This document shows, in pieces, positions 6,001 through 12,000 of a stretch of DNA of 64,000 bases. How positions within the stretch are numbered: position 1 is the stretch's first letter; each line of letters begins with the position of its first letter. A program made the position numbers. Source of the DNA: Escherichia coli (GTDB taxonomy: Bacteria; Pseudomonadota; Gammaproteobacteria; Enterobacterales; Enterobacteriaceae); assembly GCF_002854065.1 (NCBI RefSeq), contig NZ_CP024147.1; one strand, 5' to 3'.

Positions 6001-9000
6001 GCTGACCGGGCTGAACTTTCGCCCGCAGCCCCTGACGACGCAGGCTGGCGGCAATGGTTTTAATATTGAACTCCGGCAGTTCGTCAGCAAGGCGGGGAGC
6101 ACCGTATCGCTGCTTTGCCTCAAAGAATGCCTTATGGACAGCGGCATCGCAGGTGAGCCGAAACTGTTGGCGAAGGCTCATCTGGTGACGACGCCTGAGC
6201 CAGACATACCAGCCGCTGCGGGCAACCCGAAGTACACGACACATCGCTTTGATGCAGAACTCTGCCCGATGATTTTCGATGAAGACATACTTCATTTCAG
6301 GCGATTCGCGAAGTATGTCGCGGCCTTTTGGAGGATGGCCAGTTCCTCAGCCTGCTCCGCCAGTTGTCGTTTAAGGCGGACATTTTCAGCGGCCAGTTCG
6401 CTTTCGCGCTCTGACGAACTCATTTGTTGCTGCTGTTTACTGCGCCAGGCATAAAGCTGAGATTCATAAAGGCTGAGTTCACGGGCTGCGGCGGCCACAC
6501 CGATGCGTTCAGCGAGTTTCAGGGCTTCGTTACGAAATTCAGGCGAATGTTGTTCACGGGGCTTCTTGCTGATTGATACTGGTTTTGTCATGAGTCACCT
6601 CTGGTTGAGAGTTTACTCACTTAGTCCTGTGTCCACTATTGGTGGGTAAGATCAGATCAACGAAGAGAAGATCAGCATATATGCACTAGAAACCAAAATA
6701 TCGAGCCAAGGCAATTGTTAACTTGCGTGGACAGATGCTCGTTATGTATTAAAATCCCATTGCTTAGTCACGAAGATAATGATCGTATGGCTTCCTTAAG
6801 GGCTGGTGAGACACGTTGATTAAGTGCTTCATTAGCCCAGTCGGATTGCACGGGTATTCTACGCAATATCACTGTGTTTAAAGCAGCAAACAAACGATGC
6901 AGTAAATGTATAGAACCGGTCGCGATAGCTGTATCCACCCACTGGTCCGCATAGAGCCATGGGGCTGAAAATAAATCAGCCATCGCCTGAGTAGCAACTT
7001 CAATAGACGCTTTTTCTAGGCAAAGAACATCACCCTGATCGCCAAAATTATGCTCAAAGTAAGGCAATCCTTCTATATTCGTGCGAATTAGAGGAAATGG
7101 GCAGCGCCCAATGCTCAGTAAAATATAGGCGTCTATACGCTGATCATCGTCACCCACCTCTGCTGACGGCAGTTTCGCTAGTTGCCCGAGTATCATCCAA
7201 CTGGTTGATTTAGAAATGACCTTTGGGATTTGATCCTCTAAATTCACCAGAATACTCTTTGCATCATCCCCGTGTTTAGAAATCCACGCTAATCCATCCT
7301 CAATCTTTAGATTGACTTATTGGTTGTCTGGCATAGCTAAAGTAAACAATCCGTTTTTTATAGGTTCTTTATATGGCTCAATGCTGAGAAGGCCCTGAAT
7401 AATTCCAAAGCTGAAATATCTCTCTTTAGCTGCCATACGGCGTATGGCTTGAGCACCGATCATATCTCCAAGATAAGTGGCGTCTAGCCGTTCGCCAAGC
7501 CAAGCCCCGGCGTCTTGAGGGTCTTGTTCTGCCCGTAAAACCAGTTCATCACAAACAGCATCCGACAGTTCCAGAAGGTAAGCTGCGGGAACTGTCGGCA
7601 CCACAACATCTTCCCATCCTGAAAGGCGAAAAATACGAACTGCCCCCATATGTTTTAACTCATTCACTACACCACGAGCTTCGTCAGAAAGTGCGTCATA
7701 CCGCACGACAAATCCATTCGCTTTAGCAAACATTAATTCTACTGAGTGGGAGTTTGTGTCAGCTAGTGCGCAGCGTGCAAGAACCCGATAATAACGAAGA
7801 AGATCATACTGACTCTCATAGCTCTTTTGCGCAGCATCTATAAGTTCCATACCGGGTGATGGAGGAAGATAGGCGATAAGATCCGTTTTCTGGTATTGAT
7901 GATTGCGCACAATGTCATCATAAATAGTGCGAAGAACCCAAGGCGAGCGGTAGTCATCGGCGTATTCTGCTCCCTGTTGAAAAACTATCCGCTGGTCCGA
8001 GAGAATCTGTTGCGCCAGCTTAAATTCATCTAGGGACATAGGCGATGTTTTAAATACCTTCGACCGGCTACCAATTGCAGACGGAGTTCGTCCGTTTGGA
8101 TTTTTCAGTAACGCGTTGGCATGATAGGTCGTCAGAACAACCACCAGCCTGTTGCCAAAACGTATACCCGCAAGTTCCTCAAGATCAGTAGCCATTTGGG
8201 AGCCTGGTTCAACGTCGTCGATAGCAAGCATAAGCGATGGACCTTCAGTGCAGTTAGACATTCGTCTTAACCAGTTACGTGCATCATTTGAGGTTAAATT
8301 CCATTCAAATTCAGCTGCAAAAAGATTGGCCAGAGCCTGAAATAGTCCTGGTCCGGAACCTCGTAACATCAGGACAGCCAAAAGATCGCTACTTTCCGTT
8401 TTTAGCGAAATTTCACGGAGGCAACTGCTTTTTCCGCTTTGTGCATCACCCTCAATGATAGTGAAAGCTGTACCCATCACAGCAGATTCAATTACAAGAG
8501 ACGTGATTTTGCGAGGAAAAAGTAGGTTGTTGGCAAATGGATGTTCTGAATGCCCAGGCTGATCAGTTATATCAATCAGCAGCCGGGCTGTTTCTTCTCG
8601 CACAGCTGGCACCCAAGCATTAGTTTCTCGCCCCATCAAGGCTTCAATAGCCCAGCGCATGTCAGCCGCCGCCAACTTTGCAGAATTGGCGAGCATCTTG
8701 TTTACCGCTGCCGAGGCATCCTGTCCACCCGACCACTGTTGTCCATTACTTGAGTCATAAACGCGCGTATCTTTACCGTTCGTAACTACAACGAGAGGCG
8801 GACGTGGTGTTAACTGGTTAGCGTAGCTTTAAGCCTGTTCATAATCATCATGGGTCAGTGTCAGGTCTTCACGTTTCAGTTCAATAACCGCAAGTGGTCT
8901 CTCCCGATGAAAGATCAAAACATCCGCTCGCCCGTATTTTTTCCAGTGTGCGGCGCTATCTATTTTGTAAGTTCCATGGCCTAGCCGAACGGTAAAATGG

Positions 9001-12000
9001 CGCTGTTCGATAAGATCTTCGCGAGGAATGTTAGGAAATGCTATGTTTAGTGCTGAAGTAAGCCGGCTTTCTAGCTCGGCTTCAGTTCGAACGAGTGGAG
9101 AGCCCGTTTTTGATTGCATACTTTTCATGACAAAGTATCCTCAGATATTAGTCATTGGCTAAGTTTTTATTTCACTTACTACCTTTCCAGATTAATGCGA
9201 AGACGCATAGCATTGGATTAACGGATGTGAAATGGATTATTGACAAGCAAAGTAACTTTTTCCGCATAACTATCAATTGATTAGCTGAAGAAAGGGAATA
9301 TGATTTAGTTCACTCAGGTTTCTCCAGCACGATGTGCAGATGCTAAAGCCACGATTAATTCTAAAGCAGATTAATATAACCCTGAAACAGGCAGAGCAGG
9401 AAACGCCTGTATCGGAAGTATGCCGCATGACCGCCCCCGATAACTCACACCGAATGCCAATAGGAATGTCAGCCCCTCGCTCATAGCAGACCTTCGGGCC
9501 TGGCAGCTTAGTGCCAAGAACACTCCCCAGTGGCCTATCGGCAAGTGTAAGCGTACGAATATCGCCTCCGTGCTACACAGTAGACGACTACATTTTCGAC
9601 GCATGAGCAAATCGTGGCTTTAGTTGTCTAAAACCAGTGCTTCAACACTTTTTTTTCACCAAACAACGCATCGTAGAAGCACTAGTTGGATTCCACAGGC
9701 TTACGTAAACAAATAGCGCTAACGGCTAAGCTGGTCCATTAGACGCTCAATCATCCTCGCAAGAGGTATAGTTACTCGATGCCCAGAACAAATGACATTA
9801 ACAAATCTAGCTTTATTTTCATGTCTGCAGTTGCCGAAGCCGCATTAACCTGCGGCAAGGCAAGCCATCTGTTTACGGCATCGGAGTTGAATCTCTGCTG
9901 CCTTAGGAACGAAGATACCGACGTTTCCCAGGAAAAGATTTCACCCCCACAAAGTTCGACGGGCTGCTGAGAGCAGGCTCGCTGAATAGTCATTCCCAAA
10001 CCGACGTAGCGGAGAAGCTCACGTCGCACATTCTCATCTTTTTGCATGACTGGTGCATCCAGTTTCGGTTTCGGTCCAAAGTACACTCCGGTAGTACCTG
10101 GTTGTAATGTCGGGTCACTGGAAAAATAAACCGGAACTCCCATCAATTTAAATGCCGCTGTCAAAATTTCATAACTAATGTCTGATCGACTCCAACGGCC
10201 CATGTGGGGTGGTACTTTTGGCAAACCGACCAGATCATCGCCACGGCTTACAATCGATACCCCCTCAACTGGCACGGATGGTTGCATTCTGAATACAGCG
10301 TCAGAATCGATTTCCCAGCCAGCTTCGCTTAACAATCGCAAAAAATTACCAGCAGCCACGCACGATGATTCACTCCACTCAACACAACCGATGCGCAGCT
10401 TGTCCCGCTGACCGAACTGTCCTGTTCGAAATAATTCGAGGTATCTGTCGCGATTGGAACTATTAACGGCATATGCATCAATCACAGTAGGCGGTACAGG
10501 TTTACTTGCAGATTCAGGATTTTGTTGAAGCAAATCTGGGCTTATGAAAAACACTATAGCGAAGATCGCCACTGCGCCAGATGCTCTTAACCACCCATTA
10601 AATTTTACTTCAAGGAAACCAGGCAGAACTGCACCAATACATCCGGCAGCCAGAGCCAGAACTATTCGGTAAACTATATATTGATAAGGTGTGGGATTGG
10701 GGGTTGTGATAGTAGTAATGAGTATGGCAACTATCGCCACAACCGCAAAACCATACCTAATGAACTTGTCTGTCCTTACACTGCTCATTTTAATTTTGAC
10801 ACCTGAATCAAGTCCATAAGTCGAAAATCCCGCATTAAACTGTTCCCCAATGATTAATACAGCTTTATACGCGTAATGAGGCTATTGGCGTTGGTGATGA
10901 GTGTAACTGTCCATTCCTCGCTCAGAGCAACCTTCTGCTCCAAGAGTCAGTCTACAGTGTGCAAAAAACAGACGTTGATCACAATATCGAGTTAATCATT
11001 CGGCCGTTTATCACTCCCATTGAAAAATTTCTCAGTATCCAATATACCAATGTTGAGGGCTTCCCTCTTACATCTCAAAAGGATAACTATCATGGGTCTT
11101 AAACCTGGTCCAAAACCAATTGCTAAATCGACAGGAAAACCAGATCAACGCCGACGAGATAATAAAGATACTCCTGGCAACACTCCGGGACTAAAGCCAA
11201 GTAAGTCCACCGGGAAGTAAAAAAATCAGGGTATAAATAAGTTATTTATACCCTGACTACATATCCAGTCTACTGAAGGTGTTTCTGCAGCCAGGTGCAC
11301 GTTCCTTCTATATCATACGCCTGTGCCCCATACCCTTTAGCAAGCAAAGTCTCTGGTAAATACTCGTCATATTTATCCAGATACTTGTCAGGAACAACTG
11401 CAGCAAGCTCAAACTCTGAAGGTAACCCCGACAATAGCATTTTCTTAAGTACACGCTGGACAGAGGCAACGCCTGAGTCCTCTACCTCTATCACACCTGC
11501 AAATGAACTGGCTTTAAAGCCACAACGTATAAGCAGGGACGTAATTGTATTGACAATTTTATCCCCCATCCACGGGATCACGTAGCAGTTCTGACCACTG
11601 GCAATAAAACAGTCATTGTGTAGATTGTAGCGTTGGAAGTTGTCACTTCCTTCCGCAAAGAGGCTTCTGGCTGCGGCATCAGCATAATCGACTCTCTTGT
11701 TGCCTACCGCGATACGGTAATCATTTTCCCTGTAGATAGCGAGCATCTCCTGGCGAACAACATCATGAACAGACATCCCGCTACCACTGAATAGTGGTGG
11801 CTGACCGCCTTTAGTCGCCTCAACATAGATAACCTTTTTTTCAACCTCGATCTCTGTCACTTTCCAGCGCCGTCCGCCGAAGATGATGTGCTGCTCCGGC
11901 AAAAGTGGGGAGTCTACAGGCACTGTGCCAAGAGTTCGGTTTCCCGTTACAATGCGAAACTCCTCAGGTGTATTGAATACGGCATAAAACGTGTAGTGAT

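What the first reader, a model, noticed from the sequence alone, without database searches (positions are those of the whole stretch)
6768..9128. ~787-codon nuclease/NTPase-like frame interrupted by exactly two in-frame TAA codons
ORFs 8829-9128, 7317-8696 and 6768-7247 are all in the same minus-strand frame. By hand translation the only interruptions are TAA at 8829-8831 and TAA at 7317-7319; the 44 and 23 codons between the pieces are open. The N-terminal piece has a PD-(D/E)xK-like motif (ADVLIF...IELK) and the middle piece has Walker A/B-like motifs. This looks like one large nuclease-NTPase defence-type gene inactivated by two nonsense mutations, next to the Shango-like operon. It could instead be a sequencing artefact, or an intact gene in related strains.
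Basis: seen in the sequence. Interest (0 to 1): 0.6.

Follow-up and report, generated by a model that had tools for sequence, protein, structure and literature searches.

The report
Decaying nuclease-NTPase defence-type pseudogene
This is a real but ordinary pseudogene: a 786-codon gene for a nuclease fused to a STAND/AAA+-type ATPase, probably a one-protein anti-phage sensor, was knocked out by one stop codon and then gained a second while decaying; the intact family is widespread and has not been studied experimentally.

Summary
Window 6768-9128 (minus strand) is one 787-codon frame with only two internal stops, TAA at 8829-8831 and TAA at 7317-7319.

- **Intact version:** In 233 complete E. 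coli genomes the same gene is a single CDS (WP_000839828.1, 786 aa). None of them carries either stop.
- **Nature of the stops:** Both are CAA(Gln)>TAA transitions. They are real: the exact truncated products occur on dozens of contigs from independent assemblies.
- **Order of events:** Haplotypes are nested. Q100* came first, then Q604* plus V626I, then a synonymous change. This is stepwise pseudogene decay.
- **Domains:** The protein has an N-terminal PD-(D/E)xK nuclease with an invariant D69/E83/K85 core. The centre is a P-loop NTPase whose fold matches Cdc6/ORC, Apaf-1, CED-4, NLRs and Avs4/Avs5. The C-terminus is a short acidic HEAT-like repeat with a variable beta insert.
- **Family and context:** The family is a conserved single polypeptide of about 790 aa. 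It sits in defence or mobile islands, has no universal partner gene and is not part of Shango. No PADLOC system model matches it.
- **Mechanism (inferred):** An Avs-like sensor nuclease.
- **Other E. coli lineages:** At least seven independent disruptions of this gene exist.

The pseudogene is ordinary; the family is moderately interesting.

The parts
6768..9128 (-). Whole pseudogene: 786 codons plus terminal stop. It is the orthologue of WP_000839828.1 and is interrupted by two TAA codons.
9138..9142 (-). GAGGA Shine-Dalgarno sequence, 9 nt upstream of the true ATG (9126-9128).
   Evidence: sequence read directly
8829..8831 (-). First nonsense codon, Q100* (CAA>TAA; + strand G>A at 8831). It is the earliest lesion in the lineage and falls inside the QxxxY motif of the nuclease domain.
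7317..7319 (-). Second nonsense codon, Q604* (CAA>TAA; + strand G>A at 7319). It arose later and lies in the variable beta insert of the C-terminal domain.
7253..7253 (-). V626I (GTT>ATT). It is found together with Q604* in intermediate haplotypes.
7335..7335 (-). Synonymous A598 change (GCC>GCT). It is the latest change and is seen only in the window's haplotype among those examined.
8724..9095 (-). N-terminal PD-(D/E)xK nuclease domain (residues 12-135; Pfam HSDR_N_2 / HSDR_N). Catalytic D69 is at 8922-8924, E83 at 8880-8882 and K85 at 8874-8876. Q98 to Y102 lie at 8823-8837.
8034..8513 (-). P-loop NTPase core (residues 206-365). The invariant R206 is at 8511-8513, Walker A G227-S234 at 8427-8450, and Walker B L298-D304 at 8217-8237.
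7596..8033 (-). Helical domain plus winged-helix domain following the NTPase core (residues 366-511).
   Evidence: AlphaFold2 model and fold matches
6771..7595 (-). C-terminal acidic HEAT-like helical-repeat domain (residues 512-786), the putative sensor. The most variable sub-domain is the beta insert, residues 584-641 = 7206-7379.

Best explanation
Window 6768-9128 (minus strand) is a true pseudogene. Its ancestor was a single 786-aa gene. An N-terminal PD-(D/E)xK (HsdR_N/Mrr-like) nuclease is fused to a STAND/ORC-Cdc6-type P-loop NTPase (nucleotide-binding, helical and winged-helix domains). A short acidic HEAT-like repeat domain with a variable beta insert follows.

Shown: in this lineage a CAA>TAA change at codon 100 truncated the protein inside the nuclease domain. 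The dead gene then accumulated a second CAA>TAA at codon 604, V626I and a synonymous change.

Inferred: the intact protein is a self-contained, Avs-like anti-phage sensor. Its C-terminal domain would bind a phage-derived ligand, more likely a protein than DNA. NTP-dependent oligomerisation through the NTPase module would then activate the nuclease, which cuts DNA and aborts infection.

The gene sits beside Shango in an argW-integrated island but works independently of it. Sub-confidences: pseudogene by stepwise nonsense mutation about 0.95; defence function about 0.6; Avs-like mechanism about 0.5.
For: **Pseudogene**
- There are two in-frame TAA codons.
- The intact allele is a single CDS in 233 complete genomes, and 0 of 233-234 carry either stop.
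- All 4 differences from WP_000839828.1 are G:C>A:T changes.
- The exact truncated products occur on 53, 9 and 43 contigs.
- The haplotypes are nested: CCCG, then TCCG, then TCTA, then TTTA.

**Family**
- 231 clusters (50% identity) reach E<1e-30 and align full length down to 25% identity.
- Homologues occur in Dickeya, Pseudomonas, Burkholderia, Vibrio, Shewanella, Sphingomonas and others.

**Domains**
- Pfam HSDR_N_2 matches at 7.6e-9.
- D69, E83, K85, Q98, Y102, G232, K233 and D304 are invariant.
- The AlphaFold2 model has pLDDT 85.8.
- Foldseek matches Cdc6, ORC, Apaf-1, CED-4, SAMD9, Avs4 (about 820 aligned columns), NLRC4 and Avs3.
- The family profile hits human Cdc6 at E 7e-4.
- That domain is acidic in 96% of members, and its beta insert is the most variable segment.

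**Context**
- The gene lies next to Shango here.
- Elsewhere it lies next to a retron-type RT, DndB, a Gabija-like pair, type I R-M, AbiJ, a ubiquitin-like system, Tn7-like elements and ICEs.
- No partner gene is conserved across these loci.
Against: - No experiment supports defence or the mechanism.
- No PADLOC model of any known or candidate system matches beyond the nuclease domain, and no AVAST model matches.
- Fold similarity does not separate STAND from other AAA+ clades. MuB and TnsC score as high as the NLRs.
- The best C-terminal matches are DNA-binding AlkD-type repeats.
- A DUF5623 gene sits 13 bp upstream in 3 of 9 distant loci, so some members may work as a two-gene system.
- Within E. 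coli the intact alleles show 5 nonsynonymous and 3 synonymous differences. That gives no clear sign of purifying selection.
Confidence: 0.7

Rival explanations
1. The stops are sequencing or assembly errors, and the gene is intact in the real organism.
For: No complete RefSeq genome carries either stop. Three of the four private changes lie within 83 bp.
Against: The exact 99-, 459- and 159-aa products occur on 53, 9 and 43 contigs from NCBI, ENA and Logan. Nine independent assemblies were genotyped, and they form a nested series consistent with inheritance.
Confidence: 0.02
2. The three ORFs are naturally separate genes, each with its own translation signals.
For: Gene callers in some assemblies annotate three products.
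Against: Homologues from 25% to 100% identity are single polypeptides of about 790 aa. There is no good Shine-Dalgarno sequence before M145 or V628. The first break falls inside the nuclease fold and the second inside the C-terminal domain.
Confidence: 0.01
3. The gene still works because the UAA codons are read through, for example by a glutamine-inserting ochre suppressor that would restore the wild-type Gln at both positions.
For: Both stops are TAA derived from CAA, so a Gln ochre suppressor would regenerate the original protein.
Against: The haplotype series shows further substitutions accumulating after the first stop. The closest relative has deleted the whole segment. The only tRNA annotated in this region in related genomes is tRNA-Arg, and natural ochre suppressors are rare (general knowledge).
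Confidence: 0.03
4. Inactivation was selected for rather than neutral. The intact nuclease-NTPase is costly or autoimmune in E. coli, so loss-of-function alleles are favoured.
For: Two of four private changes are nonsense (P about 0.02 under neutral G:C>A:T mutation). At least seven independent disruptions exist in E. coli, one of them on 723 contigs. The closest relative, CUWW06, has lost the segment through an IS1-associated deletion.
Against: The statistic is post hoc, because the locus was picked for having stops. The second stop arose after the first, when the gene was already dead, so only one nonsense event needs explaining. The density of private changes in the gene does not differ significantly from the rest of the island (P=0.11). 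Ten of 11 sampled complete genomes keep it intact. Defence genes commonly turn over without specific selection (general knowledge).
Confidence: 0.25
5. The intact protein is a DNA-sensing, NTP-dependent restriction nuclease of the type IV / McrBC-like kind. Its HEAT-like domain would read DNA or modified bases, so it would not be a protein-sensing Avs-like receptor.
Against: The C-terminal domain is strongly acidic (median net charge -13, negative in 96% of members). This is unlike the basic DNA-binding surface of AlkD-type repeats (general knowledge). No methyltransferase or specificity gene is conserved nearby. The effector, NTPase and repeat-sensor order matches Avs proteins.
Confidence: 0.2
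6. The family works as a two-gene system with the upstream DUF5623 protein. The E. coli copy lacks that partner, so it was already non-functional before the stops arose.
For: A 438-aa DUF5623 gene ends 13 bp upstream of the homologue in Dickeya, Pseudomonas and Burkholderia. E. coli has an unrelated 338-aa gene 643 bp upstream instead. E. coli has Tyr at position 335, where 39 of 47 members have Asp.
Against: Six of nine distant loci lack DUF5623. Close relatives also vary at position 335 (D, H, N). All other catalytic motifs are intact in the E. coli allele.
Confidence: 0.1

Closest known systems
Avs (antiviral STAND) proteins, especially Avs4 (SeAvs4, PDB 8dgf) and Avs5 (SIR2-STAND)
   Different: It is about half the size: 786 aa against about 1500-2000 for the Avs4 and Avs3 chains (target lengths). 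The sensor is only about 275 aa. It is acidic and HEAT-like with a beta insert, not a long TPR array. No PADLOC AVAST model matches. Sensors shorter than 400 aa were excluded from the 2026 STAND sensor survey (bioRxiv 10.64898/2026.01.04.697583). Trigger, oligomerisation and defence activity are untested.
Type I restriction enzyme R subunit (HsdR), the source of the RefSeq name
   Same: The N-terminal nuclease domain matches Pfam HSDR_N and HSDR_N_2, with the D...ExK core and the QxxxY pattern. There is a weak fold match to EcoR124I HsdR.
   Different: There is no SF2 helicase/translocase module. NCBIfam EcoAI scores 22 bits against a cut-off of 550. No hsdM or hsdS genes lie nearby. The ATPase is an AAA+/STAND P-loop instead.
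ORC/Cdc6 and MuB/TnsC-type AAA+ ATPases
   Different: Those proteins have no fused nuclease or repeat sensor. No transposase or replication genes are linked to this family.
Shango (SngABC), the neighbouring system
   Same: It lies in the same argW island, with one unrelated 338-aa gene in between.
   Different: It does not match SngA, SngB or SngC. It is retained without Shango in O26/O103-type strains. Distant homologues are not next to Shango.

Membership tests
PD-(D/E)xK nuclease, HsdR_N type (Pfam PF04313 / PF13588) | Significant match to the family HMM | tested here: met
   HSDR_N_2 E 7.6e-9 and HSDR_N E 1.4e-8, residues 63-131
PD-(D/E)xK nuclease, HsdR_N type (Pfam PF04313 / PF13588) | Catalytic D...(D/E)xK triad conserved | tested here: met
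   D69, E83 and K85 are invariant in 47 diverse members. Q98 and Y102 (QxxxY) are also invariant.
Type I restriction enzyme HsdR subunit | SF2 helicase/translocase motor domains | tested here: not met
   There are no ResIII, DEAD or Helicase_C matches in Pfam. NCBIfam EcoAI R subunit scores 22 bits against a cut-off of 550, over the N-terminal region only.
Type I restriction enzyme HsdR subunit | Linked hsdM and hsdS genes | tested here: not met
   None are found in the E. coli island or in the neighbourhoods of 9 distant homologues. One locus has an unrelated complete HsdR nearby.
STAND NTPase / Avs-like immune sensor | P-loop NTPase with conserved Walker A and Walker B | tested here: met
   G227-x4-G232-K233-[ST] and hhhhD304 are conserved, with G232, K233 and D304 invariant. 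The residue after D304 is Gly in 26 of 47 members.
STAND NTPase / Avs-like immune sensor | NBD-helical-winged-helix fold specifically of the STAND clade | tested here: inconclusive
STAND NTPase / Avs-like immune sensor | Tripartite order: effector, NTPase, repeat-type sensor | tested here: met
   Nuclease at residues 12-135, NTPase with helical and winged-helix domains at 206-511, and a HEAT-like repeat with beta insert at 512-786
STAND NTPase / Avs-like immune sensor | Sequence membership in a named Avs family (AVAST models) | tested here: not met
   The only PADLOC v2.0.0 hits at E<=0.1 are weak restriction-enzyme N-terminal matches, and no AVAST model is among them. The accession was not found in the held supplements of the 2026 STAND survey, which were cut when stored.
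STAND NTPase / Avs-like immune sensor | Trigger-induced oligomerisation and phage defence | not testable with these tools
   This needs phage challenge, trigger screens and biochemistry.
Shango (SngABC) | Homology to, or obligate linkage with, SngA/SngB/SngC | tested here: not met
   There is no Sng model hit. The gene is present without Shango in strain 2014C-3057. Distant homologues are not next to Shango.
Pseudogene (unitary, by nonsense mutation) | Intact orthologues exist, and the lesions disrupt conserved domains | tested here: met
   233 complete genomes carry the gene, 0 of them with either stop, and 10 of 11 sampled copies are fully intact. Stop 100 lies between the invariant Q98 and Y102.
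Pseudogene (unitary, by nonsense mutation) | Lesions are real and heritable | tested here: met
   The exact truncated products occur on 53, 9 and 43 contigs, and nine assemblies show nested haplotypes.
Pseudogene (unitary, by nonsense mutation) | No recoding or suppression restores the product | not testable with these tools
   This needs the whole genome (suppressor tRNAs) and proteomics.

The most novel reading that the evidence does not exclude
The intact family is a previously unnamed, compact, single-protein immune sensor, a 'mini-Avs' of about 790 aa. An acidic HEAT-like domain with a hypervariable beta insert would recognise a phage component. A STAND-type NTPase would then switch on a fused restriction-type nuclease. 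Repeated loss in E. coli (at least seven independent disruptions plus a whole-segment deletion) would reflect a fitness or autoimmunity cost.
Probability: 0.35. Interest if true: 0.55.

Novelty: new member of a known kind. Interest (0 to 1): 0.3.

Why it matters
For this window it matters little. It is an annotation point: three short ORFs should be merged and flagged as one pseudogene, and they should not be counted as part of Shango.

The wider value lies in the family. A conserved nuclease-NTPase of about 790 aa forms at least 231 clusters at 50% identity and occurs across Proteobacteria and on Agrobacterium Ti plasmids. It sits in defence islands, matches no named defence system, and has a sensor too short to have been included in the 2026 STAND sensor survey. 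Its small size would make it a convenient model for how STAND sensors couple ligand binding to nuclease activation.

The nested haplotypes also give a clean, datable example of how a defence gene decays after a single nonsense hit.

Tried and rejected
1. **General mutagenesis, mutator or damaged-DNA background.** The window-wide differences from the closest island carrier (AMSCJX02) show no dominant G:C>A:T bias. The window differs from its closest chromosomal relative, CUWW06, by only about 5 substitutions in about 39 kb. Rejected.
2. **Excess of private mutations in the gene.** Four of the 10 window-private changes in the island segment fall in the gene (binomial P=0.11). Not significant.
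3. **A single clustered mutational event for the three changes within 83 bp.** The haplotype series shows at least two separate steps. Rejected as a single event; the clustering itself remains unexplained.
4. **The 338-aa upstream neighbour as a partner.** It is unrelated to DUF5623. It occurs without the nuclease-NTPase gene in Pectobacterium and Caballeronia. Rejected.
5. **Sequence searches that found nothing useful.**
   - The PDB search with the single sequence gave nothing significant.
   - PADLOC and NCBIfam gave only matches to the N-terminal domain.
   - PHROGs returned a family of unknown function.
   - No homologue was found in phage records.
   - Literature searches for the accession, for DUF5623 and for HSDR_N with STAND found no description of the family.
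6. **CP061244.1 (STEC411) as the source of the window's allele.** It carries different lesions, a 2-bp and a 1-bp deletion. Rejected.
7. **D335Y as proof that the E. coli allele was already dead.** Close relatives carry D, H or N at this position. Kept only as a weak lead.

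
Full report
**Observation**

Translating window 6768-9128 on the minus strand gives 787 codons. The only internal stops are at codons 100 and 604. Both are TAA, at 8829-8831 and 7317-7319.

**Comparison with other E. coli**

A megablast of the region found it at 99.5% identity or higher in 233 of 5,426 complete genomes. There it is annotated as one 2361-bp CDS, 'type I restriction enzyme HsdR N-terminal domain-containing protein' (WP_000839828.1 and a few near-identical alleles).

The window differs from WP_000839828.1 at four nucleotides, all G:C>A:T:
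- CAA>TAA (Q100*)
- GCC>GCT (A598, synonymous)
- CAA>TAA (Q604*)
- GTT>ATT (V626I)

I used 61-nt probes centred on each stop. All 234 and 233 matching genomes showed a mismatch, so no complete RefSeq genome carries either stop. Ten of 11 sampled carriers have a fully open frame, and strain D97-1 has a 5-bp deletion.

**Are the stops real?**

An exact-sequence look-up found the window's three truncated products in the public protein collection. The 99-aa product is on 53 contigs, the 459-aa product on 9 and the 159-aa product on 43. Several NCBI assemblies list them under consecutive accession numbers, and they also occur in ENA and Logan assemblies.

I fetched nine independent assemblies carrying the 99-aa product and genotyped the four sites:

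| Haplotype (nt 298 / 1794 / 1810 / 1876) | Where found | Meaning |
|---|---|---|
| C-C-C-G | intact allele | ancestral |
| T-C-C-G | two assemblies | Q100* only |
| T-C-T-A | four assemblies | adds Q604* and V626I |
| T-T-T-A | the window | adds the synonymous change |

The other three contigs end before the downstream sites.

The series is nested. Q100* came first and the other changes accumulated downstream of it afterwards. This rules out assembly error. It also shows ordinary stepwise decay of a gene that was already dead.

**Cause of the inactivation**

Two nonsense changes among four looks enriched: 6.45% of possible G:C>A:T changes in this gene create stops, giving P about 0.02. The test is post hoc, though, and the second stop arose after the first, so only one nonsense event needs explaining.

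The gene's density of private changes does not differ significantly from the rest of the island segment (4 of 10 changes in 2.36 of 12 kb, P=0.11). The window shows no general G:C>A:T bias. It differs from its closest chromosomal relative, CUWW06, by only about 5 substitutions in about 39 kb.

In CUWW06 an IS1 sits where window 5334-29675 should be. This gene, the 338-aa neighbour and the whole Shango operon are therefore missing.

Other E. coli lineages carry different lesions in this gene:
- frameshifts near residues 66, 103 and 399
- a truncation after residue 135
- a truncation after residue 218, which includes the O26:H11 record BAI26604.1
- the 5-bp deletion allele (565-aa product, seen on 723 contigs)
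- indels in STEC411

The gene is thus lost repeatedly. I cannot tell whether this reflects a cost or simply the usual turnover of defence islands.

**What the gene encodes**

*Nuclease domain.* Pfam finds an HsdR_N-type PD-(D/E)xK nuclease domain at residues 63-131 (E 7.6e-9) and only a marginal AAA_22 match. In an alignment of 47 full-length members at 23-66% identity, the invariant residues include D69, E83 and K85 (the nuclease triad) and Q98 with Y102, a QxxxY pattern. From memory, this pattern is a RecB-family nuclease motif described for EcoR124I HsdR.

*NTPase motifs.* G232 and K233 (Walker A) and D304 (Walker B) are also invariant. So is R206, about 20 residues upstream of the P-loop.

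*Fold of the whole protein.* An AlphaFold2 model is confident (pLDDT 85.8, pTM 0.76).
- Foldseek against the PDB returns Cdc6, ORC, Apaf-1, CED-4, SAMD9, NLRC4, plant NLRs, MalT, Avs3 and Avs4. Avs4 gives the longest alignments, about 820 columns.
- The family profile hits human Cdc6 at E 7e-4 across Walker A to Walker B.

*C-terminal domain.* I modelled the 275 C-terminal residues separately (pLDDT 88.7).
- They form a short HEAT-like helical repeat with a beta insert.
- The domain is acidic in 96% of members, with a median net charge of -13. This argues against AlkD-like DNA binding.
- The beta insert, which contains Q604, is the most variable segment at 19% mean pairwise identity.

**Family and context**

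An exhaustive search found 231 clusters (50% identity) at E<1e-30. Nearly all are 760-830 aa and align end to end. Named hosts include Dickeya, Pseudomonas, Burkholderia, Vibrio, Shewanella, Aeromonas, Ralstonia and Sphingomonas. Homologues at 28% identity lie on Agrobacterium Ti plasmids. None were found in phage records.

Nine distant loci share no universal neighbour. Several have defence or mobile contexts:
- a retron-type reverse transcriptase
- DndB
- a Gabija-like pair
- type I R-M
- AbiJ
- a ubiquitin-like system
- a Tn7-like element
- integrative elements

A DUF5623 gene lies 13 bp upstream in three of these loci. The 338-aa gene upstream in E. coli is unrelated to it and occurs alone elsewhere. 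The adjacent operon is a true Shango. The gene persists without Shango in other strains and matches no Sng model.

**Mechanism (inferred)**

The order effector, NTPase, repeat sensor is that of antiviral STAND proteins. The most likely mechanism has three steps:
1. The C-terminal domain recognises a ligand.
2. NTP-dependent oligomerisation follows.
3. The nuclease is activated and infection is aborted.

A DNA-sensing, restriction-like mechanism is the main rival.

**Comparison with known families**

The protein is not a type I R subunit. It has no helicase motor and no linked hsdM or hsdS. It matches no PADLOC system model.

The 2026 STAND survey lists HSDR_N_2 among its catalogued domains. 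However, it excluded sensors shorter than 400 aa from its clustering, and I could not find this accession in the held, truncated supplements.

**Verdict**

The feature is an ordinary, well-documented pseudogene. The underlying family is an uncharacterised, compact, Avs-like candidate defence protein.

Noticed in passing
window 5334-29675 (compared with L025/L026, NZ_CP182139.1): The closest chromosomal relative, CUWW06, differs by about 5 substitutions in about 39 kb of shared sequence. It has an IS1 in place of this 24-kb island segment, so it lacks the pseudogene, the 338-aa gene and the entire Shango operon.
   Followed up: partly
window 9772-10788 (minus strand): A 338-aa protein of unknown function lies between Shango and the pseudogene. 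Its N-terminus is hydrophobic and looks like a predicted membrane region. It matches phrog_23803 and phrog_5814 only. Its C-terminal domain occurs alone in Pectobacterium and Caballeronia, next to CcdAB and an AAA_15/AAA_21 ATPase in one case.
   Followed up: partly
L005 6672-7988; L006 6672-7988; L011 4672-5988: A 438-aa DUF5623 (PF18536) gene ends 13 bp upstream of the nuclease-NTPase homologue in Dickeya, Pseudomonas and Burkholderia. This suggests an operon partner in one sub-clade. It is absent in six other loci and in E. coli.
   Followed up: partly
plasmid records H112-H122 (e.g. NC_002377.1, NZ_CP011249.1): Full-length homologues at about 28% identity are carried on Agrobacterium Ti plasmids and other conjugative rhizobial plasmids. 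They are annotated as 'type I restriction endonuclease'.
   Followed up: no
protein clusters; L003 9895-9899; L027: Many different truncated forms of this gene circulate in E. coli, with products of 70, 113, 135, 218+569, 404 and 565 aa. The 565-aa product of the 5-bp deletion allele is seen on 723 contigs, far more than any single intact allele among the 40 members read.
   Followed up: partly
window 8124-8126 (codon 335): All sampled E. coli alleles have Tyr at position 335, the end of the beta-4 strand of the NTPase core (sensor-1 position). There, 39 of 47 family members have Asp. The closest relatives have D, H or N, so the significance is unclear.
   Followed up: partly
window 11270-13468 (SngC helicase): The window's Shango helicase carries two private non-synonymous changes (P238L and K114N). 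The TerB gene carries only two synonymous ones. All three Shango ORFs remain full length.
   Followed up: no
window 5452-6591 (minus strand): The IS3-family element immediately downstream of the pseudogene is frameshifted in all E. coli carriers examined that retain it, so it is an old, fixed remnant flanking the gene.
   Followed up: no
window 7253-7335: Three of the four private G:C>A:T changes lie within 83 bp (rough P about 0.015, post hoc). The haplotype series shows they arose in at least two steps, so no single clustered event explains them.
   Followed up: partly
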